A stretch of DNA of 64,000 nucleotides from Naegleria gruberi (lineage: Eukaryota). The notes below the pieces were generated by a model. It worked only from the letters and a program-made list of their open reading frames with translations, was not told where the DNA came from and ran no database searches. The position numbers and the translations under genes were made by a program. Where the stretch lies: the NCBI GenBank assembly GCA_000004985.1, contig GG738879.1. One strand, written 5' to 3'. Positions 6,866 to 61,022 of the stretch are shown here, one piece after another; position 1 is the stretch's first letter, and the number at the start of each line of letters is the position of its first letter.

Positions 6866-7125
6866 CTTTGCAGCAAAGAGATGGAAAGGTTTGAGTTGGT
6901 TTTTTTTCAAAGATGGATTTTTCTCTTTTACGAAATTGTTTCATAAATGTAGTAGTAATTGGCGCCACTTTCAACAAGGCGAAAGAAGAATGACTACAAT
7001 CAGCCTTAAAATTACACTTCACGAATCCAATAGTCATGGTTATTAGAATAAATACTTTGCAACTCTTGATTATCATTAATGTTTCGATATCAGACTAGTT
7101 GCCTATTTTTAAGACATTAATGTGA

Positions 7126-7197
7126 GTGCGCTTAGCTCAGAGGAAGAGCATCGGACTTCGAATCCGAGGGTCGTGGGTTCGAACCCCATAGTGCATA
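7126..7197 (+). tRNA. tRNA-Arg, anticodon UCG.
   Basis: 72-nt cloverleaf: acceptor GTGCGCT/AGTGCAT with G1-U72 and G5-U68 wobbles, D arm GCTC-AGAGGAA-GAGC, anticodon stem TCGGA/TCCGA with loop CTTCGAA (U33, UCG, A37), variable GGGTC, T arm GTGGG-TTCGAAC-CCCAT, discriminator A. A T5 run follows immediately downstream as a Pol III terminator. Confidence 0.8.
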
Positions 7198-7789: not shown

Positions 7790-8563
7790 ATGTCGGAACG
7801 TAAAGTCCTCAACAAGTACTACAATCCAGAAATGTGGGACAGTAAAATCCCAAAACGAAAAATTCCAAAGAATAACCAGACCAAGATTAGGAATATGGTT
7901 GCAATGACCATTCAGTGTACAGTTTGTGGTGAGTATATCTTTTCAGCCAAAAAGTTAAATTCAAGAAAGGAGGTTATTGAAGGTGATGAATATTTGGGAA
8001 TGAAGAATTGTCGTTTCTATTTTCGTTGTACACGATGTGCCAGTGAATTGACTTTAAAAACTGATTATGAACACGATAGATATGTTTGCGAACATAATTG
8101 CAAGTCTATTCATGATCGTTCGGAAGGCATTGCAAAACAAGAGGATAAAAAACAAGAGGATAATGTTGAGGACGAAATGAATGCATTGGAGAAAAAGGCA
8201 ATTTCTTCTAGAGAATATCAAGAGGATATTGATCAATTGGAGGAAATTAAGGAAATAAATTCTCAGAGAGAGGCCATCTCAAATCAATCTTTGGCAAGAA
8301 AGGAAAGCAAAAGAGAAGAATCTTTCAAGTTTACCTCAAAAGAAGAGGATGAATTGTTAGAGTTCGTGGAGTACCAATCCAAATTGGGAAGACGTAAATT
8401 TCAAGGTGATGAAGACATTGAGATACTTTCAAAAATTGATGACAATATTTCCTCTGAAAAATCATTCATTTCAGAAATTCAAGAAATTTCAATGCAACCA
8501 AAAAAGAAAAGAAAGCAAAAAAGGTCAACTAAGGATAAAATTAGCCTTAATATTGATTATTAA
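7790..8563 (+). CDS. YJU2: Splicing factor of the YJU2/CWC16 (CCDC94) family.
   Basis: The N-terminus [24 protein letters not shown]...CTVCGEYIF...[18 protein letters not shown] matches the conserved YJU2/CCDC94 N-terminal zinc-binding region (human [22 protein letters not shown]...CKTCGEYIY...RFYIKCTRCLAEITFKTD). An acidic coiled-coil tail follows. ATG context is caaaaaaaATGtcg. Confidence 0.8.
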   Translation: [257 protein letters not shown]

Positions 8564-8664
8564 AATTAAAAATACATATTAAACAAATCATTCAAGGTTT
8601 AAATCTTTGGAATTACTTATAAAGCATCCTGCTTAATTAATTTCAAACAAATAAAAAAAGAATT

Positions 8665-8736
8665 TACAGACAATGGGGCTCGAACCCACGACCCTCGGAT
8701 TCGAAGTCCGATGCTCTTCCTCTGAGCTATGCCTGC
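8665..8736 (-). tRNA. tRNA-Arg, anticodon UCG; second copy, in inverted orientation.
   Basis: The reverse complement gives GCAGGCA-TA-GCTCAGAGGAAGAGC-A-TCGGACTTCGAATCCGA-GGGTC-GTGGGTTCGAGCCCCAT-TGTCTGT-A. The D, anticodon, variable and T arms match the 7126 copy except for one T-loop base. The acceptor stem is entirely different. A T7 terminator lies downstream on the minus strand. Confidence 0.8.
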
Positions 8737-8884
8737 TACGATTAATAGTTTAAATATTCTAAAATCTTTCATGATACATATTAAGGTATGGATTTAAAAT
8801 TTTAAATGCAGCATATAACTTCCATATTAGAGAACATCCTTAAATTACCCTTTATCTCTCCTTAATAAATGCCATTGCTTCCAT

Positions 8885-20327: not shown

Positions 20328-20426
20328 ATTGTTTGTGTTTTAATAATGAAAACAAACTCCGTAAGATGGTGGAGAAAATTTTTTCACTTCAACTTTATTC
20401 ATAAACAATCGGGATGTTTTCCAAGG

Positions 20427-23400
20427 CTACAACTTCTTACATTGTGTCTTATGAACCTTCCAATGTGAAGCTTGGCATTCCTTTGAGCAATAAACAACAG
20501 CTTGACAGGCACCACACTTCTTTTTAGAGTTTGGTTTACCACAACATGCACAGTTGTAAGATTTTGAGGCAGATTCATCAATAGTTGTCTTTTCTTCAGT
20601 TGGTGGTGATGAAACTGAAGTGGTAACAGGACTAGCAACTACCACTTCTTTCCTCTTTTCTTGTTCGATAATTGGTGGAGAGGATACATTTTCTAAAATG
20701 ATTGGTGAGTTAGAGGAAGAGGTTTGAGATGTTGGTAAAGATGTTGGAGGGTGAGTTGATGAAACATTGCATGATGGTTTTGCTTCAGACATTTCAGATT
20801 TCTTTTTAGATTTCTCAGTCCTTACTTCATTGACACCAACAGAAGCAATGGCACTTGGAAGAGATGATTCTTCATAGGTTTCAACTCTTGGTCTAGTTGG
20901 TTTCTTTTCTAAACGTGCTCTTTCTTCCTTTACAAAACTCATACGTAAGCTATCTATCTCGAATATGTCTTGTGGAATAGAAATATCCATCTTTTCCGCA
21001 CTGATATCAGACCAAACAGAAGAGAGTAAGGATGTAAGTTTTTGGTGAGACATTGAAATCAACAATGTAGCAGAAAGTTCTCCCATTTCAGGATGCTTGG
21101 CAATGAGAGGTACAAGCTTTTCAAATAATGTCTTTAGGTTTGGAGCCTTCTTTCCTTTTTCTTTTCTTGCCATGCACCATTTGGCCACACCTTTCGATAT
21201 TTCAGTAAAGACAGAATTTCTAGGTACGAAACGAGCTGGAACTCTAGATCTACTATTCTCTAATGCTGTATTAATTGCATGTTCAAAACCATATGTTTGG
21301 TAAATCTTTACAAGCATGGCATCAGGAAGCATTTCTTGACCATCATAATATAAGCTTCTTTCAATAAAGGCTCTTATGAATGGTACATTAATTGCCTTGA
21401 TTGAACCATCTTTCCATTTCTTCAAACTTTGATACATATCAGAAGCAATATCAGTATTTCCATACACTTTGAAATAATGTGCAGCAAATGTAAAGATATT
21501 TACAAGGAATTTCTTTGCTTCTGGTGCATGATCCACTACATCACACATACAAATAATCCAATCCATAACTGATTCAGTTGGTAATGGAACCATATCATGA
21601 ATACTTTGAATATTCAAACCGCTAATAGTCTCAAAAGCCATCATAAATCCAAAATCAACCTTCTCAGCAATAGCAAAGTAAAAGTTGTGGAAAAATGGAG
21701 TGCAAAACATTTCACGATAGAATCTAAATGTGTAAGGTGTACGAGGAGGTTGTTTCAAATCTGAAAGATTAGTCCATAATACTTCGTAGAGTGTTCTGGT
21801 ATTTTTTTGCTTTCCCACCTTTGGTCTTCCAAACATCATTCTCCAAGCTTGGACTACCTCTTCCTCTTCACTGTTTAATGGTCTGATCTTAATGGTCTCG
21901 TTAATAGCTGATTCTGCAATGTCAAGAGCAACGTTATCAGAGATAACAGTGAAGCAAGCAAATGGTTCATCAGCAAATTTTGTTTTGTATGGCCTGAATT
22001 GTCTGGTTGAGCCCAAATAGGATTTCAAAAAGTTATCACATTGTTTAGTGGAGGGAAAGGAGGTTGCCAGTTGGTCTCTGAGTACTTGTGTATATGCATT
22101 GAATAAAAGACAAGTCACAACATATTCTCCTCCCATATTGTCAACTCTCATTATTCTGAAAATGCCATAACCATCTGAAGCAGTAATAATAAACTTTCCA
22201 GCTATTCCTTTAGTTAACCCTTGCTGTTTGATTTTTTCCTTTAAGGAAGGTTGAATTGGAGCTAATTCGTTTGTTGCAAATTTAGGAGTGGCAGCAAAAA
22301 ATTGTCTACGTTCTTCATTGGTAAACTTTTTAGAAGCGTCAAATTTGGAGACGAATGGTATTCTTTGTTTCTCACCACTTGTCATCCAGTCCTTTGATGT
22401 GGCTGCCATACCAGCCTTAATAGGATCCAGCTTTGAGGTCTTTGGATGCACTTGAATTTGATAAATTAATTGACCAAAACCAAGACAATGAAGCCCTCTC
22501 TTTAAATTTGGAATGGTAGAAAGTGATGCTACTGCCCTAAGAGTATTTAAATCAGGTAAAATATCTCTATCAATCTCAAATGTAGAGTCTAAAGTATGGT
22601 AAAGAGCAGGAAGTAGTGCCTCAAGTAAACACCCCAACTTGTCACTAACAAATGCACCATTAGCAATGAACCTACATAATGAAGGAGATAGAACTGACTT
22701 GGCAGTACTTCCAAAAGAAAGTATGATTTTGAAGAATTCACTGTCTTTCTCGAGAATATCTACACACTTTAAAGATTTTTCGATATGTTCTGGCTTTAAG
22801 TGAGCAACTGCAAAAATGTTGGCTAATACTTCAAATCCATTATCTGGGGAAGCCTGTAAAAACTTTTTCAAACATTCTAATTGATTCTTTTCAGTAATAA
22901 GCTCAAACACATGTTCTTCACACTTTGAAATGTAGTTAAATGCCTCTTGTCTATCCTTAATGGAGTTTTGGATATTACTAATAGTATTCAAATGTTGTTG
23001 GTAATTGAAATCAAAGCTAAGAGCTAACAGGCTGAATTTTTCGTCGTCAATTCTTGGGCACATTGGACAATGCTTCTTTTTCTTTGCAGCATAAACGGTA
23101 GCTGCTTCTTTAACTTCTTCTACTTTTGATTTACTCATGCTGCTAAGTGTTGCCTTTTCCCATTTCTTTGAAACATCACCACTATATGTTAATAGGAAAG
23201 TGATTATGTGCATTAGAGTTTCCCAACCACCAAATTCTGGATCATCAAAACCAAACATTAGTGGTGAAACTTTTTCAATGTGGTGAGCCTGTGTCAAAAA
23301 ACTAGTTGGATTGATCAGTTGGGATAGTTTGACATTCTCAACACCCAAATAAATAACAGCATCCATCATTTGACTATATGTATCGACATCAATGATGACA

Positions 23401-26171
23401 TTCCTTAACATATCAGAAAGCTTCTCATTATTATGATCAAATTTTGTAGAACCTTCAAAGTACTTCAATCTTTGGTCTTTTGACATATTTCTGAGGTACG
23501 AATAGATTTCTCTTCTGTGAGGAGTAAATTTCTTATCAATAACTATTAGGCACTTTTTAATCATCTCGTCTAACATTTCTCCTATTTTCTCAGAGTGTTC
23601 ATATTGCTCTTTTGGTATTGTTGCTTTCATCTTTTCCAAAATACTTGTAAATCCTTCTTTCTCTACCATATCCTTAAAGTATGAGAAATCATTTAAACCC
23701 TTTTCCAATTTATCAAAATCTGTCTCAACAGGTTTTTCAACTTCTTGTTGCTTGAGCTTTTTGAAAAGTGTTACCATAGATTCATTGTCAGGATCCTTTG
23801 CTAAAGCAATTTTGACAACTTTGATTGCCTCATCAATTCGTTTCAAAGCTTCGAGTGACATTGCTTTTCTAAAATAACCTTTCACAAAATTAGTATCAGC
23901 TTTGATAGAGTCTTCAGCACATGAAAGAGCTCTTTCAAAATGCTTCAAATTAAAGAAGCAAGCAGACATATTCGAATATAATATTGGTTTTAAACTAGAA
24001 GAGCATTCAGGGTGCTTGATTGCCTTGTTATAGAAATCTAAAGCCTTCATACAGGCACCTTTTTTGAACTCTTCATTACCCTTATTCTTCAAATCCTCAG
24101 GAGACTCTGTTGATGATTCAGATTTTTTGGTTTCAGATTTAGCATCAGTTTTAGGCTCAGTTGTGGATGTCTTTTCGCTTGTTGATGTATTTCTAATCTT
24201 GGAAAGGAGGTTTAAAACTTCAGAATCTGTAACTTCCAAAGATCTAGGTAATATTAAAACAGAACCATCAGCTCTATCTAAAATGTATTTGACAAGTTTG
24301 TCTTTTGAACTAGTTCTGTACAATAAGTTCTGAATTTCCTTCTTAGATATCTTTAAACCAAATAGAAATAAAGCATCAATACATTTTTCGAAAGAAAGAT
24401 CTTTCGAATGTGGCTGGTCATGATTGTCACATCGTTGACAGGTTTCACCACCTTTTACACAATCATAAACACTGGTTGAAAATATTGTTTCAATACCAGT
24501 TAGCAAAATGTCATTTGTAATTTTCTTTCTTTTCAATAGATAGGAAAGAATCTCGACTGTTGGCCTCCAATTTCCTTGATTAACAGCCATTTCAAATGGG
24601 CTCGGCATACCACCACTTGAAAAAAGAGGATTACCTGATTTTTCACAGAAAAATTGCACAATTTCTCTTGAGCGATCATAATAGCATGAAAAATGGAATG
24701 GATTAGGTTCATATGGAGTTCTAATGGGTGCTCCATGCTCCACCAACAGCTTGACAGCCTCCAAGTTGTTCAAATCAACAGCCTTATGGAGAAGTGAAAG
24801 ATGTACCTGAGTTCTGGCATTAGGGAAATATAGTTTAGAATAAACCTGGAAGAAGTTTTGGACTGGTTTGCTATGGTCGAAGTGTTTTCTTTTTAGTTTG
24901 TGCTCTTCACCACTAAGACAAAGATGAGAGTTCACAATATTTACATTTTTGATGGCATACTCTAAAGCATCAGGATTTGCAAGCCATAAATCAAGATTAT
25001 CTGAAACGTATTGGGAATCAGCACTAAATGATGGAGCCTCTCCAACTGTACTAGAAAAGCTTCTAGGAAATCCAACATTGGCCAACTTTCTTATTCCCAA
25101 AAGATATTCAAAAACGTAAGAAGACCATTCTCCAGCTGCAGAAAGTGGGCTTTTTACAATGGCTACATCTTGGTCAACATTTTTACGTTCTGCATACTTG
25201 ATTTGGTCTTCTACTGAATTATATTGTGGAGTCTTCTTGTTTACAATATAGTCACACAATCCAAAACTCCAAAGTAAATATTTGGAAGAACTCAATTTTA
25301 ACATTTCCACATCTTTCTTCATGAAATCATAAGCTTCCTTCCATCGTCCAAGTTTCATTAAGCATTCTGGAATATTAGCTTGAAAATTGCAATATGAAAC
25401 CATCATTCCATGAATTTCTGAATCTAACTTTTGAGCTCTATAATAGGCATCAAGAGCTTCTTCATACCTTCCCATTCTTCGTAAAACATTGGCTTCTCCA
25501 ATTATTGCTCTAAAATATTGTCTAAATTGATGATGAAGCCAATTTCCAGTCTTGTCAAGTTTAGAATTGGTTGGATGGTAATAATTATCTTTTTTAGATT
25601 GTCCTTGTCTATAATATTGAAGTGCTTCCTCAAAATTCTTTGCCTTGTACATTGCTAAGAGGTTGTAGGCTTCAATACAATTTGGAGAGAGTTTTAATGC
25701 TTCGGAAATTTGTTTCTCAAGCTTCTCTGGGGTGTTAACATAGTCATGAGCACCGTGTGCAATTTTTGAAGCTTGATAATCGTTTCTAGTCTTGTACATA
25801 TCTGGTGATTGATGCATCATGTCATGAGCAGGAGAACCAGCTGCATTTCTGTGTTCTGAAAAGTCTCTTGAAAGAGCCTTCACATCATGATCATCTGGAT
25901 TCTTGTAGTATTGTTCGATCATGTAAATCTTCTTTTGTTTTTCGTTTAGTTCCGAAGGTGCAGAATCATGCTTTTCATAAATATTACACAACCTGAGAAC
26001 TCTCAAGAGTGTATCTAATTGCTTTTCAGTTAGGTTGTTCAGCACACCTGATGGTCCAAAAACTCTCGGAAGTGATTGGGTCAAACTTTCAAATTCACAT
26101 GGTTGTGTTGGATTATTGCAAGAGCTTTGAATTGGATAACCCAATTGTTGTGCAAACCAATTAGCATCCAT
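20427..26171 (-). CDS. Large (1,914 aa) TPR- and ankyrin-containing protein with a C-terminal MYND-type zinc finger.
   Basis: Uninterrupted ORF. The C-terminus CACCGKPNSKKKCGACQAVVYCSKECQASHWKVHKTQC is a MYND zinc finger. TPR-like repeats lie in the middle region (...ALDFYNKAIKHPE.., ..YFRKAMSLEALKRIDEAIKVVKIAL..). ANK-like segments lie near the N-terminus. Confidence 0.6.
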   Translation of the reverse strand: MDANWFAQQLGYPIQSSCNNPTQPCEFESLTQSLPRVFGPSGVLNNLTEKQLDTLLRVLRLCNIYEKHDSAPSELNEKQKKIYMIEQYYKNPDDHDVKALSRDFSEHRNAAGSPAHDMMHQSPDMYKTRNDYQASKIAHGAHDYVNTPEKLEKQISEALKLSPNCIEAYNLLAMYKAKNFEEALQYYRQGQSKKDNYYHPTNSKLDKTGNWLHHQFRQYFRAIIGEANVLRRMGRYEEALDAYYRAQKLDSEIHGMMVSYCNFQANIPECLMKLGRWKEAYDFMKKDVEMLKLSSSKYLLWSFGLCDYIVNKKTPQYNSVEDQIKYAERKNVDQDVAIVKSPLSAAGEWSSYVFEYLLGIRKLANVGFPRSFSSTVGEAPSFSADSQYVSDNLDLWLANPDALEYAIKNVNIVNSHLCLSGEEHKLKRKHFDHSKPVQNFFQVYSKLYFPNARTQVHLSLLHKAVDLNNLEAVKLLVEHGAPIRTPYEPNPFHFSCYYDRSREIVQFFCEKSGNPLFSSGGMPSPFEMAVNQGNWRPTVEILSYLLKRKKITNDILLTGIETIFSTSVYDCVKGGETCQRCDNHDQPHSKDLSFEKCIDALFLFGLKISKKEIQNLLYRTSSKDKLVKYILDRADGSVLILPRSLEVTDSEVLNLLSKIRNTSTSEKTSTTEPKTDAKSETKKSESSTESPEDLKNKGNEEFKKGACMKALDFYNKAIKHPECSSSLKPILYSNMSACFFNLKHFERALSCAEDSIKADTNFVKGYFRKAMSLEALKRIDEAIKVVKIALAKDPDNESMVTLFKKLKQQEVEKPVETDFDKLEKGLNDFSYFKDMVEKEGFTSILEKMKATIPKEQYEHSEKIGEMLDEMIKKCLIVIDKKFTPHRREIYSYLRNMSKDQRLKYFEGSTKFDHNNEKLSDMLRNVIIDVDTYSQMMDAVIYLGVENVKLSQLINPTSFLTQAHHIEKVSPLMFGFDDPEFGGWETLMHIITFLLTYSGDVSKKWEKATLSSMSKSKVEEVKEAATVYAAKKKKHCPMCPRIDDEKFSLLALSFDFNYQQHLNTISNIQNSIKDRQEAFNYISKCEEHVFELITEKNQLECLKKFLQASPDNGFEVLANIFAVAHLKPEHIEKSLKCVDILEKDSEFFKIILSFGSTAKSVLSPSLCRFIANGAFVSDKLGCLLEALLPALYHTLDSTFEIDRDILPDLNTLRAVASLSTIPNLKRGLHCLGFGQLIYQIQVHPKTSKLDPIKAGMAATSKDWMTSGEKQRIPFVSKFDASKKFTNEERRQFFAATPKFATNELAPIQPSLKEKIKQQGLTKGIAGKFIITASDGYGIFRIMRVDNMGGEYVVTCLLFNAYTQVLRDQLATSFPSTKQCDNFLKSYLGSTRQFRPYKTKFADEPFACFTVISDNVALDIAESAINETIKIRPLNSEEEEVVQAWRMMFGRPKVGKQKNTRTLYEVLWTNLSDLKQPPRTPYTFRFYREMFCTPFFHNFYFAIAEKVDFGFMMAFETISGLNIQSIHDMVPLPTESVMDWIICMCDVVDHAPEAKKFLVNIFTFAAHYFKVYGNTDIASDMYQSLKKWKDGSIKAINVPFIRAFIERSLYYDGQEMLPDAMLVKIYQTYGFEHAINTALENSRSRVPARFVPRNSVFTEISKGVAKWCMARKEKGKKAPNLKTLFEKLVPLIAKHPEMGELSATLLISMSHQKLTSLLSSVWSDISAEKMDISIPQDIFEIDSLRMSFVKEERARLEKKPTRPRVETYEESSLPSAIASVGVNEVRTEKSKKKSEMSEAKPSCNVSSTHPPTSLPTSQTSSSNSPIILENVSSPPIIEQEKRKEVVVASPVTTSVSSPPTEEKTTIDESASKSYNCACCGKPNSKKKCGACQAVVYCSKECQASHWKVHKTQCKKL

Positions 26172-43768: not shown

Positions 43769-46700
43769 TTACTTTTGTTTATGTTTGGACATGAAATGGT
43801 CAAAGCTTTGTCTCGACAATAGATCATGAACAGTGGTGGAGAGTCTAGATGAACGTGGAGAGGCTTCTCCTATTGTATGCTGTGGAGGAATATCAATGTT
43901 GATATGACCTTCTTGTTCTTTTGTTGTGTGTACGGAGGTTGTGGACTTTCTTCGGAAGGCACGATTCACAAAATCTGAAAATTTACTTCTTCTTCCACAG
44001 AGGAATAACTTATCTCCTTCCAAGAGGATGATGGATTGTCTTGGATGAGTATAAACATAATAGAAATCATTGTCAACTGACTCTAGAATGCCATTTACAA
44101 ATATTCTCTTGGGTCTGTAAAGTCCAATCAGAATCTTTTAGAGTGGTTTAGTGTACTTGATATAATTGAAACTTACTGTATTGGATATTTCACAAAGTTC
44201 TAGAAATACATCAATGGCTGCTCTACCAAAACAGTTTGGAGGACAATCTTCTTGAAATATAGAACTCTTGCTCATATTGCAGAGACCATCTAAGCTCATA
44301 TGCTCAATAATTTCATTCAACTTATCAGTGTAGAACGATTGAGCCAAAAGCTTAGGAATGAAACTAATTGGAAATATTCTACCACTTGAGTAAAGCTCAG
44401 ACAATAGACAGAACTGATCATACTCATCACTCTTGTCAGAAAGTGAATGTAATGGATCATCAAAGGCAACAGAGGCACTGCTAACATTACGGAATATTTT
44501 GAAAAGAGAGTGGTTCTCTCCATATTTCTTTGAAAAACATCCTCCTTGTTTTAGAAATTTGATATTCTTTTGGTTATTGAGCTCCATGATGAAGAATTTC
44601 TTGCTGTCTATATAGCTAATTGATTCTATGAGTTTGATAACTTCTGCATCCCTAAGGTATTCAGATGTGTCAATAAGATCGTCTGTGGCTTCATGAGAGT
44701 CACAATCATTTTCTGGTTTAGAATTGTGACCATGAGAGCCATATTGCCTGGATAGATAGACCACTGCTTCTGCATTTAACAAGCCACATCTGTGTAGGTC
44801 AAAAACGTCTGTTGCATTCCCTTTCAGAAAGAATACCTGATCAAAAAACTTGAGCCTGTCATATAGATAATCTACGTATGGATTGCCGTGAAGATTTGTA
44901 TGAGAGACCATAATAAGTATTGGAGTGAAATGTCTCTTTCTAATAGATCTTATTGTAGCTAAGATGACAAGAGGATATTTCAATTCTCCCACAAGTATGA
45001 TATGATTCTTTAACGAGCATGTACTAGAGAGAAGGAAAAAATCATTCTTTGGTCTAGCCTTGATGAGTAGATTGTAGTTTTCTAGAACACTTTGGTAAAA
45101 GTCATTAAGAAAGCGCTTGAAAGATACTCCAGAATCATCTAAATTCTTGTAAAAGAAAGTTGGAGGAGCTACTGACCTAAACAATCTCAATAGATATCCT
45201 TTGTTCATTTCAGTCTCTGAAACATGTGGAACATTTTTGATATCTATGATTTGCTTGTCTATACCTGACATGGTACTGACAAAAGATATGGGATTATCAA
45301 AGTCTGAACTATTGGTCAATATGGAAGGACTTTCAGCTTCTGGTGGAGTTTCAATATTTGAAGAAAAGGAAATATTGGATTGACTTGGACCTAGACTCTC
45401 AATGCATTTTTTGGAACCTCTTTTGGGTGGAAGTCCATGTCTTACTTTCAACACTTTTCTCCGAGTAGGAAGATATTTTGGTCTAGTTTCTACTTTTGGT
45501 TCATCCATTTCTTCGTTGATTGTCTTCTCATACGCGTTCTCCTCACTTACAAAGAATGTTTCAAAGGATTCCATGTCATTATTGTCATTTCGTGCTGGAG
45601 CTTCTTTCAAGTCTATTGGTTGTTGTGGAATATCTTGAGTATCTGCAGAGCTTGTTGAGTGTTTATCTGATTGGCTGTCGTCTTCTGCTTTAGCATTCTC
45701 AAAAAGGTAAACTAGGTTGGCATGAAACGTGCTCTGAGCAATCACGAATGCTTTGCATTTATCCACATGAATTATTTCATCAAAAGGATTCAATGATACA
45801 CTTTTTAGACTTTCATCATGATTATCCAAGTATTCCATGGCCAGTAAGGTGAGATCAAGATTCTCTCTGATGAAAACGACTGCCTTAATGAAGGTCATTC
45901 CTTCAAAAAATGGCGAGAATCTCACACAATATATTTCATTTCCTAGTCCGTCCAGATATTCAAATATCCACAGACTTTCAGCAGAAGTTACAGGATCTAA
46001 CTTCTTTTTAAGGAATGGAATCCAGGGCTTTTTCTTCTCTTGTTCCATAATCATCTTGTGGGTTTCAATGGCATTTCTAACATAGGTTGTCGTGACGAGA
46101 TTGATTAAGAGTGTACTAAATCCATGATATACAACACTCATACCCATAATCTTACTTGAAATAGTTTCTGTGCAAATAACTTGTTTGGCACCTGCTTTAT
46201 ACAAGTATGCTCTTGATTCAGGTAATGTCACTTGTGCATAAATATCCAGATCTGGATTAATATTTTTCAGACCAATAGTTGCCACCATTATTGACGTATC
46301 ATTATGTCTAGGATTAGAATGTTTAATACAATTGAGAAGGAACACAGAGTGAGCTTCATGAACTTTGATAATTCTACTCGTCTCATAATCCATCAAATCT
46401 CCATGGAAAACTAAAACCTTTTCTTGAAGGTATTGTCTCACTTTGATAACTTCCAAAATTGAATCACACAACTTCTTATTTCTGGAAACAACTTTGCAAT
46501 TGAAATTTTGGATGAGTATTGAACATGAAATAAGGTTGTAACTTACTCAAGGATTTTTTCGTATTCTTTCCATGCATTGAATGATAGAATTCTTTTAGAA
46601 AGTCCAATACATCTTGCTTGTGAAAGTATCCACAAACAATGACATGATTTTTCAAATTGGCATGTCGAGCTCTGAAAATTGCCTTTTCGCTTGTCGATAA

Positions 46701-47699
46701 TAACAAAGACAATTGATAGGGAATGAATGTAATTCCAACCAGAAAGCAGCCAATCGTCCAATATTTACTCGCAAAAGTAGTTGGAGAAATATCACCATAT
46801 CCAATGGTAGCCATGGTAATTACCATGAAATAGATTGAATCATCTTTACATAATATATTAAGGATGAAATACGTTTCAAAATACCTACGTAATGAAAGAA
46901 CATGTCCACCAAATAAGAATTCAATCATTTGAAAAGTTCCAGCAAACAAAACCATCAATGTAACAATTAATGCAATAAGACAAGCAATTTGTACTTGTAG
47001 AGTTGGTCCAAATCCAAAACTATTCTCCAAAACATAGTGTAGTATATTCCTCTTCCAAGTCAAGACAAAAACAATCCTCACCAATCGAATTAATCTGAAA
47101 ATTGAAATCATTACTGAAATGTTAAACATGTTCACATAGAGCATAATCTTCTGATCTCTATTCACCACCAACATTCTATCATTTTCCACACCATACGCAT
47201 GAATACAATAGATGATGTAAATACATAATGGAATCATTGGAACTACAGTTATAAAATCCAATATAGAGTTGGGATGAATCAAATAACGGAGTTTATGTTT
47301 GGTGAGGAGAAAGGAAACGAACCACAATGAAACAGTTATGGTACACAGTATCAAATCACAAATGAATATACTCTGCAACATGAATTGAATATGTTGATCC
47401 GAGAGTGAGAAGGAATTTTCAGGAGTTGGTCTTGATTGAGGATAAATTTGCGAATAGAAAACAAAATTTGTGTAAACGTCCGCAATGAAAATAACAAAAA
47501 AGAGAAAGGAAATTATCACCTGAAGAATTTCCATATCCAAAAAGTAACCATTATGTTTCATATAGTTTTTGATTTTGGATCGAAGACTGAGTTTTAGAGG
47601 TTTCGGCACGTTTGATGCATTGAAGAAGAATTCATTGTGATGATTGCCTTCTGTTGTTGGTGTTTTGCTTTGCTGTTGTTGAGTTGTTGGTGTAGTCAT
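43769..47699 (-). CDS. Slo/BK-type voltage- and Ca2+-activated K+ channel (about 1,277 aa). Three exons: join(47699..46547, 46491..44177, 44134..43769); introns of 55 nt (46492..46546) and 42 nt (44135..44176).
   Basis: Exon 1 carries S4-like arginines (RLIRLVRIVFVL), the K+ pore TMATIGYGDISPTT, and the RCK1 start NHVIVCGYF. Exon 2 carries Slo-like RCK gating-ring sequence. Exon 3 encodes the conserved Slo tail (ILIGLYRPKRIFVNGILESVDNDFYYVYTHPRQSIILLEGDKLFLCG; human Slo1 has CFGIYRLRD...[24 protein letters not shown]). Both introns have GTAAGT donors and AAG acceptors and keep the frame. The first ATG of exon 1 is at 47699 (ttaaaATGact). Confidence 0.8.
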
Positions 47700-48016
47700 T
47701 TTAATTCTTTTTATTAACAAATTCCTCAATAAGAAGGTAATCATTTCGATTGAAGAAGAAATAATTTTGCAATTTCGAAATTAGATTTGATTCTGAACTA
47801 AAAGGCTGATGATCTTTTTAACAAGATTCCCAAATGAATCATTCAAAAACTCTCCTAAAAACAATAAAATAGGTTGTATCAGTTTGAGAACTTTCGGATT
47901 ACATTTATTTCCAAATCACAAACAATCACAACATGATTCTCATTGAATGTCACACCATCGTAATCATTGGTAGCATGTTTCTCTCTAATTCACAAAGTAA
48001 CAACCTAAATTAAAAA

Positions 48017-52870: not shown

Positions 52871-54727
52871 TTAGTAGAAAGCACTTTGAGGTCGTGGATT
52901 AGGAATAATTTCTTTTGATTCAAAATACGTAACCATTTGTTTGGGTATTTCAGCTAGCACTTCAGAAGCTAATTGTGTTAAATCAGAACATTCAGAAAAG
53001 CTCACAAATTGAACAATGTCTCTTGTCATTTTAGTTCCATTACTGTGAATGAGTGGTTCATCATCAGCATCGAATTTTCTACAACTTGGGAAACTTCTAC
53101 CACCAATACCAACAATTACAATTGAGATAGGTTTGTCATTGGCCTCTATAATTGAATCGATTGTGCCTTGCATGTCAAATGCATCCCCATCAATAATTAA
53201 CAATAGAATATTGTAGAATTGTTGTTGTTGAGTAACAGGAGGAGTTCTCTCAACGACATGTTCAATAACTCTATAAAAGTCATCTCCTCGATAAGGCTTT
53301 CCAGTTTTTGGATTAGTGGCACTTCCCATATCTCCAAATGATAGTCTTGGAACTGCCTTCTCATATGCTTCAAGTATTTCTCCTACACAAAGTTCCTCCT
53401 TATCTGAGAGTGACAGATTAAACATTGGATTCATTTTTAATTCCTTATCTATCCTTGCACCATATCCATATGCTTTCGAATAATTAGTGAAAGTGTTAAA
53501 AGTCAAATACTTACCACCATATATCTTGTCAGAATCATAAGGTTCCAAAATTTGCAAAACTTGTGCAAGGGCTTGTTGATAGTGATTCTTCTTGGAACTT
53601 AAATAATGGAGGGAGCTACTACTGGTGAAACCACCGTTTGATGCAGTAAAATCAATGCCAACTGATACTGAAATGTTACATCCTCCCATAATGTGGTCTA
53701 AAAATTGATCTTGGCGGTTTTCCTTCCTGGCAACAAAGGATTGGTAGATTTGATATTCTGGATTTGGTACTGGAACATGTTCTATCTGAATAGTACATAT
53801 TTCAAACTCAAACACTCCAGAGTTTTTGTAATTCTTCTTTTTTTTTTGAAGGGATGGCTCAATTAAATGGAATTGTTTTACATTATTATTCAGAACTTGG
53901 TCCAAATTATATTTAAATTCTCCAATTAAATCATCCTTCGAGTACTTGTCCTTGTCATAGCATGTCACAAATATATCCTTGTTGTAATCATTGTTGAATT
54001 CATCTAAATTGAGTTTAAAGGATGTCCAAGAAGGGTTCAGATTCTTATAGATAACTTCACTTGTGTAGAGTTTGACTCTTCTTCCAGCAACTTCCTTTTC
54101 AAAGAAAAAGTAACAATCTGACTTTCCAAAGAAATCCTTCTTATCTAATCCAATACCTTTACATTTGAATAGAACTACTTTCATATCTGAATTAACAGTA
54201 GTTGGTATCTCAGAACGTAGAGCATTCAATTCAGCCGAGCTCATACCAGAAAATTTCAAAGTGGCATTCCTTTCAGAATCAGCATTATTAGTGTTATTCG
54301 AATCCGATTGCCTAACAACCTTCTCAACATGAACAAAGACCTCACCTTGTACTTTCCCACTCTTCAAAACAAGATCTAACTTTAATTTACCATCCCTCGA
54401 GCAAACAGCTTGTGATAATGAAAACTCTCTAGTTTTGCCAATAAGCTCACTCTTATTTCCACCATCGTCATCATAGATTTCAATATAAAATTTCTGTACG
54501 CACTCAAAATAATAATGAACACTAAACTTGGTCTTGAACACTGGATTATGATTATTCTGAATTGTTTCGGTATTGCCCAGAAACGTGAATTTATCAACAC
54601 CACCCGATGATGAACTTGTGTTACTTTCGTACAGTTTAGCAAACGGATCAGACTTGGACATCAAGTCCATTCTAGCCAAATTGCAACATGATAAATAAAT
54701 ATCAACAGATTCTCTGGCGGAATTCAT
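52871..54727 (-). CDS. Copine: two N-terminal C2 domains plus a C-terminal vWA (copine A) domain. Intronless.
   Basis: C2A begins VDIYLSCCNLARMDLMSKSDPFAKLY. C2B has ..VLFKCKGIGLDKKDFFGKSDCYFFF... The vWA region carries the copine-specific VGIDFTASNG motif and ..PTNFE.. surrounding sequence. Confidence 0.85.
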   Translation of the reverse strand: MNSARESVDIYLSCCNLARMDLMSKSDPFAKLYESNTSSSSGGVDKFTFLGNTETIQNNHNPVFKTKFSVHYYFECVQKFYIEIYDDDGGNKSELIGKTREFSLSQAVCSRDGKLKLDLVLKSGKVQGEVFVHVEKVVRQSDSNNTNNADSERNATLKFSGMSSAELNALRSEIPTTVNSDMKVVLFKCKGIGLDKKDFFGKSDCYFFFEKEVAGRRVKLYTSEVIYKNLNPSWTSFKLNLDEFNNDYNKDIFVTCYDKDKYSKDDLIGEFKYNLDQVLNNNVKQFHLIEPSLQKKKKNYKNSGVFEFEICTIQIEHVPVPNPEYQIYQSFVARKENRQDQFLDHIMGGCNISVSVGIDFTASNGGFTSSSSLHYLSSKKNHYQQALAQVLQILEPYDSDKIYGGKYLTFNTFTNYSKAYGYGARIDKELKMNPMFNLSLSDKEELCVGEILEAYEKAVPRLSFGDMGSATNPKTGKPYRGDDFYRVIEHVVERTPPVTQQQQFYNILLLIIDGDAFDMQGTIDSIIEANDKPISIVIVGIGGRSFPSCRKFDADDEPLIHSNGTKMTRDIVQFVSFSECSDLTQLASEVLAEIPKQMVTYFESKEIIPNPRPQSAFY

Positions 54728-55117: not shown

Positions 55118-56485
<1,368 letters not shown>

Positions 56486-57252: not shown

Positions 57253-57573
57253 TTTTTTTGATAATTATTTGAAATTCAAAATTATTAATTATTTCTTCCA
57301 ATTTAAACAATCAGTAAGCAAATATCGTCCTCTGTAATTGGTCTCCAACCATGTTCAATGAGATTAAAACTGACTGAGAAATTAATTGAAAATACTTGAG
57401 GGAAATAAAAGTTGTATTGCCAACTAACTGATTTGTTGTCAGTGTGTTTGCCAATCAATCATGAAAACTTTCTTGAATTCCATTTTGTGATATTTTATTA
57501 CAATATATAGCTTACAAATACGATAAACAGATTGGAATTATTGCTAAATTGCAATTAAATGTTTCTGAAATAT

Positions 57574-59386
57574 TTACAATTCCCAATCATCATCACTTTC
57601 CTCATCTTCACTGGAATATTCAATATTACCACGACGAAGTTCCATAATACCTGCAATCTTGGCTGCCAAATTGTTTTGATCACTTTCAGCCATATTCTTG
57701 AATTCTGGTAAATCTTCTTGCTTTACATTTCTCAATTTCTTATTTTTAATTTCAGAAAGCATGTCAACACCACCTGAGGCACCACTATCAGAATCAGTTG
57801 TTGGACTTGCAACAGATACTCTAGGCTTAACAGAGTGATCGACAACTGGTGGAGGAGGAACATTGGTTGGTGGAGGAGGTACAAAACCACCAACTCCAAT
57901 GGCACTTGAGCCAGAAGGAGCATTTGAGCTAGCTCCCTTGAAAGGAGGTGGTGGAGGGGTTGATCTAGTTCCTGGGGTTGGTGGAGGTTGTGGTCTTCCA
58001 CTTGGAACATCCAAAGAAGGAGGTGGGGGAGCATCTGATGTGACAGTGACAAGTGTCTTCATTAAAAATTTGGCAGTTTTCTTATCTTTCAATTCAGCTT
58101 CTGAAATGCCTGCCTTCTCAAATATGGTTTTTAGCTCTTGGGGTATTTCTGTAAATCCACTTTTTGGATCAAAACCAATGTGTGAAACGTGTTTAAACTT
58201 GTCAACCTTTGGTCCAGAAATTTTGATTTGTGACCGGTCAGGAATTTGGTCCTTATTCTTTGTTCCGAAAATCTTGGAGAATAAACCACCTCCACTACTG
58301 CTACTACCTCCACTACTGCTATTGCTAGGAGTGTGTTTCTTTTCAGGTTCCTTATGGGAAGAAGTAGTATGTACAGAGCTACTGGCAGCAATTGAAGTAT
58401 TGACAGCTGTTGGCTTGTTAGCAACTGGTGGAGGAGTGGATGGAGGAGGATTAGTCTTCTTCACTGGAGTAGGTGGGGCAGTACTGGAACCAGTACCAGT
58501 TGGTGAAGAAGAAGAAGAATCAGAACTGTCACTTCTCATATTAACAGAAGGTTTAGTTGAAGGCAAACTTGGAGTTGAACCACCATTGATAGAACCAGTT
58601 GCTTTCAAACGAATGAGTTGACAAACTTGCTTGGCAAATTGATCAGCATCAAATCTTTCAGCAAATAACAATCCAACAAAACCTTCATCAGATTCGAATG
58701 CATGAAAATTGGAAGAAAGTGTTTGATAGTCGAAACCTTCATAACATTCTTGTTCCATAGTAACTGATTTACTCTTCAAATCTACCAACCGAATCATTAC
58801 TACTGATTGCTTTTCAACCAATGTAACTGTCAAAATTCCATAAGAATTGGCATATGACCATTGATTACCATTGTTGGCTTTGTAGAGACGAACTGGTGCA
58901 GAATACTTGATTTCGAAAATGTTTGGTAAAGACAAGACACCTGCAGCGAGTTGTACAGCACGTTTACTTCAAGTTTGACAAGATTTGGGGAAATTAAAAT
59001 TGTTTTTTTTAAAATTTAAAGTATTTCATCTTTCAATTTTGATTTGGCAAGTAAACTCAACTCCATTTGAAAAGAATCTGTAACGATAATATTTTATTCA
59101 ACAAAATGCTAATTTCTCGATGGAATTAAGGTAGTTTTGAAATCTGACTTCAAATTATGAATCCTCGCATTGACATACCCCTTGGGGTGGCAGCATTCTC
59201 AAAAATATGTAGAAATGAGTAAGAACGAGTTGTTAGGTGTTGTTCTATTGAAATGCTTATTTTGGATTTGACAGCAGAAGAACAACAAAATTTTTTCTAA
59301 ATAATTTATTTTCTTTCAAAAAACGCGTCAAATTTGAAGTAAACGTGCTGTAATTCGTCAGGGAGAATGTTGATTCTTGTTGTCAT
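57574..59386 (-). CDS. WASP-family actin nucleation-promoting factor with WH1/EVH1, CRIB, poly-Pro, WH2 and acidic-Trp modules. The N-terminal coding region is interrupted by a TA-flanked inverted-repeat element. Restored CDS = join(59386..59351, 58953..57574), 471 aa.
   Basis: WH1: ..IKYSAPVRLYKANNGNQWSY...VVMIRLVDLK... CRIB: ISGPKVDKFKHVSHIGFD. Pro-rich region with many PPPP runs. WH2-like GGVDMLSEIKNKKLRNVK. Acidic C-terminus DEESDDDWEL. Upstream of the element an ATG (aaaaaaaaATGaca, 59386) encodes MTTRINILPDEL. That matches the region preceding WH1 in N-WASP (LLTPQEN) and is in frame only if 58954..59350 is removed. Confidence 0.7.
58954..59352. mobile_element. MITE-like non-autonomous DNA element, 395 bp plus flanking TA/TA. 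26-bp terminal inverted repeats (TACAGCACGTTTACTTCAAGTTTGAC, one mismatch). AT-rich non-coding interior. Possibly a Tc1/mariner-type insertion in the WASP coding region.
   Basis: Plus-strand 58954..58979 is the reverse complement of 59327..59352 (25 of 26 positions). Both ends are bounded by TA. The interior has no ORF. Precise removal of the element plus one TA restores the WASP reading frame. Confidence 0.6.
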
Positions 59387-59585
59387 TTTTTTTTAACTTT
59401 ATTATATTTTTATTGATGAGTGACGTTTGTTGTTCCTTTGCTATTGTAACCTTTTTGTATCAATCTTTTCAATTTTTATCTTAGAAAAGTAATATTATTC
59501 TTGTTGTCATTTGTTTATTGGGTACGCAACGTTCCTAATTTGCGTTTTTGCGACGAGCTACGTATTTTTAAGGAACAAACAACGA

Positions 59586-59657
59586 TCCCGTGTGGTCCAA
59601 TGGCTAAGATACCTGGCTCTCACCCAGGAGATCCGGGTTCAATTCCCGGCACGGGAG
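59586..59657 (+). tRNA. tRNA-Glu, anticodon CUC.
   Basis: TCCCGTG-TG-GTCC-AATGGCTA-AGAT-A-CCTGG-CTCTCAC-CCAGG-AGAT-CCGGG-TTCAATT-CCCGG-CACGGGA-G. The loop has U33, CUC, A37. The T arm is CCGGG/CCCGG. A T5 terminator follows directly. The D stem has 3 bp plus one mismatch. Confidence 0.8.
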
Positions 59658-59701
59658 GATTCAATTTTTAGGCAAGATAATGAATAATTTTTTTTAGTTT
59701 A

Positions 59702-61022
59702 TTAGATTTCAGTTCTTGTCTTATTAACACTACTCTCCTCACTTGAACTAAATTCTGTCATTTCAATCATTGAAACACTAATGCTAATCTCACACACATC
59801 ATTTGCTTGATGAAGCACCTCTCCAATGGTTGATGATTTTTGTGAAATTTCACTTCCACTTGCGCTGTCAGGTTGTTGAACAGTTTCTGATTTTGCAATT
59901 TCTTCTTTCGAATTCTCCTTATGAAGCAAGTATTTGAGGAGAAGTCTATTTCTCAAAGAAGACACCAAACTTGCACACATGAAACTCAAACCAAGAACTA
60001 AATAAATACCAAAGAGTACCAAAATTACTGCAAACCAAGGTTTCACATAAAAATTGAGAACTGTATAAGGAAATTCGGAAACTAGACGATTTCTCATACA
60101 TGTGAGCATCCATACAAAGTAAGCACTTGGGAAACACATGATTGTGAACACGTGCCACTTTCTATATTGAAAATTAGACAATAAAAAGTCAATCAAGCTC
60201 AATATTCCAGTCACTCCATGATAAGCCACAGAACTATCACAAATTCATTAACATTTTTCAATGATCATCAAGAAACAACTTACATGTAATCTACTCCATC
60301 TTCCTCCTCTCCCAACCTTGCAAACCAGTAACCAATCGAAACAACCAAAGAAGCCACCAAATTCAACTCTCCAACAATCCATATAATACCAGAGAGTGCT
60401 CTCAATACAATCACCAACCATTTGTTTCTTCTCTTCAACACACTAATAGATTCTGAAGTGAAATTCACAGAGAAATCCCTAAACACAATCAAGTAAAACA
60501 TTCCAAACACGGTTTGAGAGCTGAAATATGTTGTAAATACCATTACCATATGATGGGTAAAATAAGTTGAGGATTTGAGAAGTACATTGTCCGTCTCATA
60601 CTTTCTCATGAACGGATACGAAATGATTGTTCCAATAATCCAACAACAGACTGTAAATCTGAAAATGTACAGAGCAATTGTGATGTACTTGTTGTAGCCA
60701 AATGATTCAAAGACGAATTGTGAAGAGTTTCTCAAGCTGTGTGAATGTTGTGTGTTAAATATTTTAAAATTCAATTCTAATCAACTTACCCATCAAGAAG
60801 TAAATCTTGCTTTCTGATTTCATTAGAGTTAGTGGATTGGTTGTCTGGTTCCTTCTGATCACGGTTCTTTCTCCTAGTGTAAAAGAAACCTTTCACTAGA
60901 AAGAAACCCACCGAAACCATAAAGATGAAAGCAAATGTCATACTGCTCTGTACTAAGAGTAGAGAACTAATTAAATTAGCACCTCTTGTTTCAGAAGATG
61001 AAGGAATTTTATAAGGGTCCAT
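59702..61022 (-). CDS. Multi-pass membrane protein (about 405 aa, at least 7 helices). Three exons: join(61022..60790, 60736..60284, 60233..59702); introns of 53 nt (60737..60789) and 50 nt (60234..60283).
   Basis: Three consecutive track ORFs (60786..61022, 60280..60774, 59702..60229) are linked by two GTAAGT introns, both phase 2, with CACAG and GATAG acceptors. The spliced frame is continuous (...DLLLDG-LRNSSQF... and ...GVDY-I-SVAYHGVTG...). ATG at 61022. Confidence 0.6.

What the first reader, a model, noticed from the sequence alone, without database searches (positions are those of the whole stretch)
58954..59386. TA-flanked inverted-repeat (MITE-like) element inserted into the N-terminal coding sequence of the WASP homolog; precise excision restores the ORF
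The plus-strand segments 58954..58979 and 59327..59352 are reverse complements of each other (TACAGCACGTTTACTTCAAGTTTGAC; 25 of 26 match, TA at both outer ends). They enclose about 350 bp of AT-rich non-coding sequence. On the minus strand the WASP ORF (WH1/CRIB/WH2/acidic) is open upstream to exactly the left repeat and has no ATG. Immediately beyond the right repeat there is a well-contexted ATG (aaaaaaaaATGaca at 59386) encoding MTTRINILPDEL. If 58954..59350 (TA plus 395 bp) is deleted, the two parts fuse in frame as MTTRINILPDEL-QLAAGVLSLPNIFEIKYSAPVRLY.... The fused N-terminus aligns with the residues preceding the WH1 domain in N-WASP (LLTPQENESLFTFLGKKCVTMSSAVVQLY). No canonical GT..AG pair reproduces this join, so ordinary splicing does not remove it. 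This looks like a recent Tc1/mariner-type MITE insertion, or an IES-like germline element, disrupting an essential-looking actin regulator. The host-gene sequence is otherwise intact.
Basis: partly seen in the sequence, partly recalled or inferred. Interest (0 to 1): 0.8.

Follow-up and report, generated by a model that had tools for sequence, protein, structure and literature searches.

The report
Small transposon splitting a Naegleria WASP gene
A 395-bp non-coding, cut-and-paste-type mobile element has landed at a TA dinucleotide in the 12th codon of one copy of the actin regulator WASP in the amoeba Naegleria gruberi. It explains a truncated gene model in the reference annotation but is otherwise an ordinary transposon-insertion allele.

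Summary
The window is Naegleria gruberi NEG-M. At 58954..59352 a 395-bp AT-rich, non-coding segment is bounded by 26-nt terminal inverted repeats (25/26) and TA on each side. It interrupts the WASP gene (minus strand) between codons 12 and 13. Removing the element plus one TA gives a clean 471-codon ORF. Its N-terminus (MTTRINILPDEL|QLAAG...) equals that of two other NEG-M WASP models and aligns without gaps with seven other heterolobosean WASPs, three of them verified at DNA level as single uninterrupted ORFs. A real empty site exists: ENA contig L006 reads GACGAATTACAACTCGC across the position. The reference annotation models this locus only as a 407-aa "predicted protein" (NAEGRDRAFT_69609) starting at internal Met65, which loses about half of the WH1 domain. 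An 11.5-kb NEG-M scaffold with the same WASP-copine arrangement encodes the intact N-terminus, so the insertion is probably heterozygous. Splicing is unlikely: the 8 likely introns in the window are 42-122 nt with GTAAGT donors, whereas the only in-frame GT/GC..AG options here are 358-382 nt with poor donors. Best reading: a Tc1/mariner-type MITE insertion allele, probably a null or WH1-defective copy of a multi-copy gene. Family copy number could not be tested. Ordinary in kind, modest interest.

The parts
58954..58955 (.). TA target-site duplication, copy next to the downstream (3') part of the WASP CDS
   Evidence: The sequence. The empty site in L006 has a single TA here.
58956..59350 (.). 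Body of the inserted element: 395 bp, 30% GC, non-coding. Its ends read CAGCACGTTTAC... and ...GTAAACGTGCTG.
   Evidence: Absent from L006, whose two alignment blocks abut here. No ORF longer than 33 aa. No Rfam family. Folds as a long hairpin closed by the TIRs, z = -3.8.
58954..58979 (+). Terminal inverted repeat, arm 1 (including TA): TACAGCACGTTTACTTCAAGTTTGAC
   Evidence: No chance matches in 100 shuffles.
59327..59352 (-). Terminal inverted repeat, arm 2 (including TA), one mismatch to arm 1
59351..59352 (.). TA target-site duplication, copy next to the start-codon segment. It forms bases 2-3 of codon 12 (TTA).
59351..59386 (-). Detached first 12 codons of WASP (ATG at 59386; MTTRINILPDEL)
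   Evidence: Identical to the first 36 nt of the L006 ORF and to the N-termini of P0001, P0002 and P0058.
59306..59386 (-). Read-through ORF of the interrupted allele: a 26-aa peptide, MTTRINILPDELQHVYFKFDAFFERK*
57574..58953 (-). Remainder of the WASP CDS (codons 13-471 plus TAA): WH1, CRIB/PBD, proline-rich, WH2 and acidic ...DDDWEL
   Evidence: Pfam finds WH1 at residues 30-124 and PBD at 257-308 in the restored protein. It is 95% identical to XP_002675872. dN/dS is 0.27 against L006 with no frameshift.
57574..58797 (-). Extent of the existing reference gene model NAEGRDRAFT_69609 / XP_002675276 (407 aa, starts at Met65, inside WH1)
   Evidence: P0057 is an exact substring of the window ORF. 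It keeps only WH1 profile positions 51-109 of 111.
58967..59324 (-). Only in-frame GT..AG candidate across the element: 358 nt, donor GC|GTTTTTTG, acceptor CTTGAAG|T. It would add 13 aa. Judged unlikely to be used.
   Evidence: Compare the likely introns in this window: 42-122 nt, all with GTAAGT donors.
59586..59657 (+). tRNA-Glu(CTC), about 200 bp upstream of the WASP ATG. It is context, and it is conserved in the empty-site contig L006.

Best explanation
The element is a non-autonomous class II (cut-and-paste) DNA transposon of the IS630/Tc1/mariner type, i.e. a MITE-like element.

- Structure: 395 bp, non-coding, with 24-nt TIRs that begin 5'-CAG, or 26 nt counting the flanking TA.
- Insertion (inferred): a transposase supplied in trans inserted it at a TA dinucleotide within codon 12 (TTA) of one WASP gene copy of N. 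gruberi NEG-M, duplicating the TA.
- Effect on the gene (inferred): the insertion separates the start codon and first 12 codons from the rest of the ORF. Translation from the native ATG ends after 26 aa. The next in-frame ATG is Met65, inside WH1. The allele is therefore most likely null, or at best yields a WH1-defective protein. This is tolerated because other WASP copies are intact.
- Age (inferred): the insertion is recent and probably heterozygous in the sequenced clone.

Shown here: the structure, the TA duplication, the empty site, the intact relatives and the truncated annotation.
For: - Structure: TIRs match 25 of 26 with none expected by chance. The TA..TA flanks are symmetric only if the duplication is 2 bp.
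- Empty site: L006 reads ...GACGAATTACAACTCGC... with one TA. Its alignment blocks 1-432 and 429-1915 abut at the element ends.
- Restored ORF: in silico excision gives a 471-aa ORF. Its first 75 nt are identical to L006. dS is 0.048 and dN/dS 0.27, with no other lesion.
- Relatives: P0001, P0002 and P0058 all start MTTRINILPDELQLAAG. N. lovaniensis (L003), a Logan Naegleria contig (L004) and an ENA contig (L005) encode WASP as single uninterrupted ORFs. An alignment of 8 heterolobosean N-termini is gap-free at the L12|Q13 junction, and E11 is invariant.
- Annotation: the reference pipeline truncated only this locus (P0057, 407 aa).
- Heterozygosity: the copine part of P0002 is 100% identical to the window's copine at 52871..54727, so that 11.5-kb scaffold is collinear with this locus yet encodes the intact N-terminus.
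- Element content: non-coding, with no RNA family match.
- Splicing: the 8 likely introns in the window are 42-122 nt, all with GTAAGT donors. The in-frame candidates here are 358-382 nt with GTTTTT or GCACGT donors.
Against: - No second copy of the TIR or of the interior was found in the 64-kb window or in about 27 kb of other Naegleria-type loci.
- Exact 19-mer scans of the metagenome, prokaryote-genome and viral collections returned only unrelated single hits or nothing. Those collections hardly sample Naegleria, so a multi-copy family is unproven.
- No cognate transposase was identified. No ORF of 220 aa or more in the window has a transposase domain.
- N. gruberi is reported as TE-poor, at 0.28% (bioRxiv 10.64898/2026.06.24.734286).
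- No transcript data were available, so loss of function is inferred, not shown.
- Heterozygosity in NEG-M rests on a protein model (P0002), not on DNA I could read.
Confidence: 0.85

Rival explanations
1. The element now behaves as a spliceosomal intron (introner-like). Cryptic GT..AG or GC..AG sites inside the TIRs remove most of it from the pre-mRNA, giving a functional WASP with a small in-frame N-terminal insertion: +13 aa (QHVYFKFDAKRAV), or Q13H plus KRAV.
For: Two in-frame, stop-free canonical-dinucleotide options exist. Acceptors in this genome are loosely defined, for example TCGAAAG| in the model-supported copine intron, so CTTGAAG| is not implausible. The host ORF shows no decay. 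Transposon-derived introns with TIRs and TSDs are known in other protists (PMC11282704).
Against: All 8 likely introns in the window use GTAAGT donors and are 42-122 nt long. The candidate donors are GTTTTTTG and GCACGTTT, and the candidate introns are 358-382 nt. No relative has an intron here. The JGI pipeline did not find a spliced model at this locus (P0057). The 13-aa insert would sit immediately before the WH1 domain, in a conserved gap-free segment.
Confidence: 0.07
2. The element is removed precisely by a non-spliceosomal route. One possibility is RNA-level removal like the nonconventional introns of euglenids, which are fellow Discoba and have CAG...CTG base-pairing ends and ambiguous borders with short repeats. 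The other is DNA-level removal like TA-bounded ciliate IESs. Either way the allele would remain functional.
For: The ends read TA|CAG...CTG|TA with a 26-bp terminal stem. The border is 'slidable' within TACA. Euglena nonconventional introns need a CAG-CTG pair and are suspected to derive from MITEs (PMC12501133; PMC11282704). TACAGCAC matches 7 of 8 positions of the Paramecium IES end consensus TAYAGYNR (consensus recalled from memory). The host ORF is intact.
Against: The Euglena code N3-CDG...CH'G-N5-6|R is not satisfied. The exon would begin with C or T rather than a purine, and the implied join deletes the conserved L12-Q13 or shifts the frame (sequence, rule). Nonconventional introns are reported only in euglenids and diplonemids (PMC6221363 abstract). 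Naegleria has no known germline/soma dualism. CAG ends are generic to Tc1/pogo-type transposons. No precisely excised product of this allele is in the 15-billion-protein collection: the clusters hold only P0001, P0057, P0058 and P0002. The annotators obtained only a truncated model.
Confidence: 0.04
3. It is an assembly or sequencing artefact, such as a chimeric join or a foreign insert, and not a real feature of the genome.
For: The NEG-M assembly does contain problem regions. The WASP::copine chimeric model P0002 sits on an 11.5-kb scaffold.
Against: An artefact would not create a perfect 2-bp TA duplication, 25/26 TIRs and an exactly in-frame restorable junction. The composition of the insert matches Naegleria intergenic DNA.
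Confidence: 0.02

Closest known systems
Stowaway-like / Tc1-mariner-derived MITEs (IS630-Tc1-mariner superfamily non-autonomous elements)
   Same: TA target-site duplication, terminal inverted repeats, small size (395 bp), AT-rich non-coding interior, hairpin-forming potential, an insertion polymorphism with a clean empty site, and termini beginning 5'-CAG as in Tc1 and pogo elements (the last point is recalled from memory, not tested).
   Different: No other family members and no autonomous partner were found with the data reachable here. The TIR sequence has no match in any collection searched. Most MITEs sit in non-coding DNA near genes, whereas this one lies inside a coding exon.
Introner elements (MITE-like transposons that become spliceosomal introns, e.g. 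Micromonas, Polarella, Aureococcus)
   Same: A TIR plus TSD element sitting inside a coding sequence, with possible cryptic splice sites inside the element.
   Different: Introners occur as many near-identical copies and carry or co-opt good splice sites. Here only a single copy has been seen, the donors are poor compared with the local GTAAGT consensus, and the length is 3-9 times that of local introns.
Euglenid nonconventional introns
   Same: CAG...CTG ends that base-pair, short direct repeats that make the borders ambiguous, non-GT-AG borders, and a host in Discoba.
   Different: The spacing and purine rule defined experimentally in Euglena is not met. That kind of intron is unknown in Heterolobosea, and there is no evidence of RNA-level removal.
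Ciliate TA-bounded internal eliminated sequences (Paramecium IES)
   Same: TA at both ends with one TA retained after removal, a Tc1/mariner-like end consensus, and interruption of a coding sequence.
   Different: IES removal needs a germline micronucleus, a somatic macronucleus and a domesticated PiggyMac excisase. None of these is known in Naegleria. The reference assembly here comes from vegetative cells and still contains the element.

Membership tests
Tc1/mariner-type MITE | 2-bp TA target-site duplication | tested here: met
   TA at 58954-55 and at 59351-52, with a single TA at the empty site in L006. A 3- or 4-bp duplication would make the TIRs asymmetric.
Tc1/mariner-type MITE | Terminal inverted repeats | tested here: met
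   25 of 26 nt match, with none expected by chance.
Tc1/mariner-type MITE | Short (under about 800 bp) with no coding capacity | tested here: met
   395 bp, longest ORF 33 aa, no Rfam match.
Tc1/mariner-type MITE | Evidence of mobility (filled versus empty site) | tested here: met
   L006 is an empty site. P0001 and P0002 have intact N-termini.
Tc1/mariner-type MITE | Multiple related copies in the genome | tested here: inconclusive
   None in the 64-kb window or in about 27 kb of other Naegleria-type loci. Collection scans gave only unrelated 19-mers. The N. gruberi genome itself was not searchable.
Tc1/mariner-type MITE | Cognate autonomous element with a DD(E/D) transposase and matching TIRs | not testable with these tools
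   No transposase domain in window ORFs of 220 aa or more. N. gruberi genomic DNA outside the window is not on record.
Spliceosomal (U2) intron | GT/GC-AG borders that give the conserved exon join | tested here: not met
   None of the five possible placements within the TACA microhomology has GT-AG. The only in-frame GT/GC..AG pairs give different joins.
Spliceosomal (U2) intron | Match to the local donor consensus and intron length | tested here: not met
   Local introns have GTAAGT donors and are 42-122 nt. The candidates have GTTTTT or GCACGT donors and are 358-382 nt.
Spliceosomal (U2) intron | Removal from mature mRNA | not testable with these tools
   No transcript data were accessible.
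Euglenid nonconventional intron | 5'-N3-CDG ... CH'G-N5-6 | purine-initiated exon (PMC12501133) | tested here: not met
   CAG and CTG are present. With N3 and N5-6 spacers the exon starts with C or T, and the join deletes L12-Q13 or shifts the frame.
Ciliate IES | Germline-restricted and absent from somatic DNA; host with nuclear dualism | not testable with these tools
   By established knowledge Naegleria has a single nuclear type. The element is present in the reference assembly made from vegetative cells.
WASP family (host gene) | WH1 + CRIB/PBD + proline-rich + WH2 + acidic ...W-containing C-terminus | tested here: met
   Pfam finds WH1 (E = 4e-15) and PBD (E = 2e-12). The poly-proline tracts and ...DDDWEL tail are visible in the sequence. 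The protein is 95% identical to the N. gruberi 'wiscott-aldrich syndrome protein'.

The most novel reading that the evidence does not exclude
The element is removed precisely from the transcript by a non-spliceosomal, structure-guided mechanism related to euglenid nonconventional-intron excision. That would make this the first nonconventional intron seen in Heterolobosea, caught as a presence/absence polymorphism just after a MITE insertion. The intact host ORF, the CAG...CTG base-pairing ends and the slidable TACA border do not exclude this.
Probability: 0.04. Interest if true: 0.85.

Novelty: new member of a known kind. Interest (0 to 1): 0.3.

Why it matters
- **Annotation.** The insertion explains why NAEGRDRAFT_69609 is annotated as a 407-aa 'predicted protein' lacking half its WH1 domain. 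It is a WASP copy interrupted by a transposon, not a divergent short paralog. This matters to anyone counting or knocking down Naegleria Arp2/3 activators.
- **Transposon activity.** A clean TA duplication, near-identical TIRs, an undamaged host ORF and an empty site in a close relative (probably also in the second NEG-M haplotype) indicate recent cut-and-paste transposon activity. This is in a genome reported to be very TE-poor (0.28%).
- **A marker and a test case.** It provides a ready-made presence/absence marker for N. gruberi strains and haplotypes. It is also a natural test of whether Naegleria can process a MITE out of a transcript.
- **Limits.** Beyond this it is an ordinary transposon insertion.

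Tried and rejected
- **Search for other copies.**
  - TIR with up to 3 mismatches in the window: only the two arms.
  - blastn-short of the whole element against the masked window: only 11-17-nt AT-rich chance matches.
  - Element against all fetched loci: nothing in the Naegleria-type loci L001-L006.
- **Exact 19-nt TIR scans of public collections.**
  - JGI metagenomes: 3 hits. Prokaryote genomes: 3 hits. Viral contigs: 0 hits.
  - All the metagenome hits (and those in the prokaryote-genome loci, as far as one search shows) are isolated 19-20-mers. The three metagenome hits sit in higher-GC contigs with no partner TIR and share a GA prefix, which suggests a coding motif, DTARLLQ. I rejected them as unrelated.
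- **Reference DNA.** Look-ups for P0001, P0002 and P0057 found nothing on record. The empty state of those NEG-M loci is therefore inferred from their protein models.
- **Element-internal ORFs.** Exact look-ups of the 33-aa and 32-aa ORFs found nothing.
- **Literature.** No paper describes Naegleria MITEs or Tc1/mariner elements, or this WASP locus. The genome paper (PMID 20211133) is not held.
- **Rfam.** The scan of 58700-59800 found only the tRNA.
- **AT-AC (U12-type) borders.** Two in-frame AT..AC pairs exist, but they delete conserved residues and do not resemble the U12 donor ATATCC. Rejected.
- **Other TSD lengths.** A PIF/Harbinger 3-bp or other TSD length does not fit: the flanks GTA and TAA differ, and only a 2-bp TA keeps the TIRs symmetric.
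Full report
**1. What is in the sequence**

The minus strand of 57574..59386 carries a WASP-family gene. On the plus strand, 58954-58979 (TACAGCACGTTTACTTCAAGTTTGAC) and 59327-59352 are reverse complements at 25 of 26 positions. None of 100 dinucleotide-preserving shuffles of the window gave two such matches.

The repeat finder extends the arms to 64 nt at 70% complementarity. Across the whole window, the only other long inverted repeat within 3 kb that is not low-complexity AT-rich sequence is a pair of tRNA-Arg genes.

The 395 bp between the two TA dinucleotides (58956..59350) has these properties:
- 30% GC, against 35% for the window.
- No ORF longer than 33 aa.
- No tandem repeat.
- No Rfam match.
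- As single-stranded DNA it folds into a long hairpin closed by the terminal repeats (z = -3.8).

**2. Organism and locus**

The WASP ORF is 95% identical to N. gruberi XP_002675872, 'wiscott-aldrich syndrome protein' (P0001). A second NEG-M model, P0057 (NAEGRDRAFT_69609 / XP_002675276, 407 aa, 'predicted protein', on a 384-kb scaffold), is an exact substring of the window's ORF. The window is therefore the N. gruberi NEG-M reference itself.

The annotators modelled this locus only from an internal methionine. That methionine is Met65 of the restored protein, with its ATG at 58797.

**3. The gene is split, and excision restores it**

- From the ATG at 59386 the frame reads MTTRINILPDEL, continues into the element and stops after 26 residues.
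- The main ORF is open upstream only to a TGA inside the downstream terminal repeat. It has no in-frame ATG before Met65.
- Deleting 395 bp plus one TA yields a 1416-nt ORF of 471 aa.
- In the restored protein, Pfam places WH1 at residues 30-124 (profile positions 13-109 of 111) and the CRIB/PBD at 257-308. P0057 keeps only WH1 profile positions 51-109.

**4. The restored junction is the ancestral state**

- P0001 and P0002 (two other NEG-M models) and P0058 (ENA) all begin MTTRINILPDELQLAAGVLS.
- N. lovaniensis (L003), a Logan Naegleria contig (L004) and an ENA contig (L005) encode their WASPs as single uninterrupted ORFs.
- An alignment of eight heterolobosean N-termini (Naegleria, Willaertia and unnamed relatives) has no gap at the L12|Q13 junction, and E11 is invariant.

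**5. A real empty site**

ENA contig L006 (2,095 nt) aligns to the window in two blocks:
- L006 1-432 to window 59784..59349, at 91.9% identity. This block includes the tRNA-Glu.
- L006 429-1915 to window 58955..57474, at 96.5% identity.

The blocks abut at the ends of the element and overlap by the 4-nt TACA. L006 reads ...CCTGACGAATTACAACTCGCTGCAGG..., where the window reads ...GACGAAT-TA-[CAGCACG...CGTGCTG]-TA-CAACTCGC.... Only a 2-bp TA duplication keeps the two ends symmetric.

The first 75 nt of the restored CDS are identical to L006. Over the whole gene dS = 0.048 and dN/dS = 0.27, with two in-frame codon gaps and no frameshift or stop. The insertion is thus the only lesion.

**6. Probably heterozygous in the sequenced clone**

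P0002 (NAEGRDRAFT_82342, on an 11.5-kb scaffold) is a chimeric model. It joins WASP residues 1 to about 330 to a copine domain.

That copine part is 100% identical to the window's copine at 52871..54727(-), apart from a 42-nt intron that my raw ORF reads through. The small scaffold therefore has the same WASP-to-copine arrangement and is most simply the alternative haplotype of this locus. Its WASP has the intact N-terminus.

The same annotation pipeline produced a truncated model at the filled locus and full N-termini at the other two. This argues that those two loci are empty rather than spliced. This is an inference, because I could not read their DNA.

The four N. gruberi-type proteins differ in a mosaic pattern. 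That is consistent with recombining alleles or with gene-converting paralogs. Kollmar et al. report WASP 'multiplications' in N. gruberi (PMC3298513).

**7. Can it be spliced?**

The exact ancestral join cannot be made with GT-AG. The border is ambiguous only within TACA, and none of the five possible placements is canonical.

I enumerated every GT/GC..AG and AT..AC pair that links the ATG to the WH1 ORF in frame without stops. The results were:
- GT 59324..AG 58967: 358 nt, adds 13 aa.
- GC 59348..AG 58967: 382 nt, changes Q13 to H and adds KRAV.
- Two AT..AC pairs, which delete conserved residues.

For comparison, I collected short ORF-bridging introns in the window, at (-)63005, 60789, 60283, 46546, 44176, 33926 and 4633. 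With the model-supported copine intron they total eight. All have GTAAGT donors and are 42-122 nt long. The candidate donors GTTTTTTG and GCACGTTT fit this profile poorly. I put canonical splicing at about 7%.

**8. Non-canonical removal?**

Naegleria belongs to Discoba, and euglenids have nonconventional introns with CAG...CTG pairing ends and slidable borders. These introns are thought to derive from MITEs (PMC12501133; PMC11282704).

The element does have TA|CAG...CTG|TA ends. However, the experimentally defined Euglena code (N3-CDG...CH'G-N5-6|R) is not met. The downstream exon would begin with C or T, and the implied join would delete the conserved L12-Q13 or shift the frame.

Such introns are reported only from euglenids and diplonemids (PMC6221363 abstract). 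IES-like DNA elimination needs a nuclear dualism that Naegleria lacks (established knowledge). No protein corresponding to a precisely excised product of this allele exists in the large protein collection, but that is weak evidence. I give these readings about 4% together.

**9. What could not be tested**

I could not determine whether the element belongs to a multi-copy family, or which transposase moves it.
- There is no second copy in the window or in the other Naegleria-type loci.
- No ORF of 220 aa or more in the window has a transposase domain.
- The 19-mer scans of the metagenome, prokaryote-genome and viral collections returned only unrelated hits or none.
- One preprint reports only 0.28% TE content for N. 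gruberi.

**10. Verdict**

The MITE-type insertion reading is well supported, and the IES alternative is not.

This is a non-autonomous element with a TA target-site duplication and terminal inverted repeats. Those features fit IS630/Tc1/mariner. The superfamily call rests on the 2-bp TA duplication and the CAG termini, since no transposase was found.

The element interrupts one copy of a multi-copy gene in the reference strain. It most likely creates a null or WH1-defective allele.

In kind it is ordinary: a new member of a known kind. Its practical value lies in correcting the annotation of NAEGRDRAFT_69609, in showing recent DNA-transposon activity in a TE-poor genome, and in serving as a strain and haplotype marker.

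Noticed in passing
window 7105-7207 and 8655-8757: Two tRNA-Arg(TCG) genes (7126..7197 on + and 8665..8736 on -) lie in inverted orientation with 103-nt arms at 83% identity. They bracket a Saf4/Yju2-like ORF at 7790..8563. This looks like an inverted duplication of a tRNA gene with its flanks.
   Followed up: no
window 52871..54727 (-) and protein P0002: The NEG-M reference model NAEGRDRAFT_82342 (P0002, 582 aa) is a chimera of WASP residues 1 to about 330 and a copine domain. The copine part is 100% identical to this window's copine. It is probably an annotation artefact on an 11.5-kb alternative-haplotype scaffold, skipping the WASP 3' half, a 206-aa ORF and alpha-tubulin.
   Followed up: partly
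window 59586..59657 (+): A tRNA-Glu(CTC) gene sits only about 200 bp upstream of the WASP start codon and about 235 bp from the element. It is conserved at the same place in the empty-site contig L006. There is no evidence that it influenced the choice of target.
   Followed up: partly
window ~53466..53507 (-): The copine gene has a 42-nt in-frame intron (GTAAGT...TCGAAAG) that leaves the raw ORF open when read through. The P0002 model splices it out. Very short, in-frame, stop-free introns like this could be missed by ORF-based reading of this genome.
   Followed up: yes
window 55124..56485 (+); loci L001, L002: An intronless alpha-tubulin gene. An ENA contig (L001) encodes the identical protein at 98.6% nucleotide identity, but its flanks are unrelated, with a Med25_VWA gene upstream. 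This indicates a multi-copy tubulin family with highly conserved coding sequence.
   Followed up: partly
window 14193..26171 (-): Two very long ORFs (2044 aa and 1914 aa) are separated by about 100 nt, with a GTAAGA donor candidate at 20440. They are probably one giant gene of about 4000 aa. Its identity was not examined.
   Followed up: no
window 44138..47744 (-): A BK/Slo-like potassium channel (Ion_trans_2, TrkA_N, BK_channel_a and RCK domains) is split into two ORFs by a 55-nt GTAAGT intron at 46546..46492.
   Followed up: no
loci L007-L012: The 19-mer TACAGCACGTTTACTTCAA recurs in unrelated bacterial and archaeal contigs. In the three metagenome contigs examined (L007-L009) it is preceded by GA (GAT ACA GCA CGT TTA CTT CAA = DTARLLQ). 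It is probably a conserved coding motif of some prokaryotic protein and is unrelated to the Naegleria element.
   Followed up: partly
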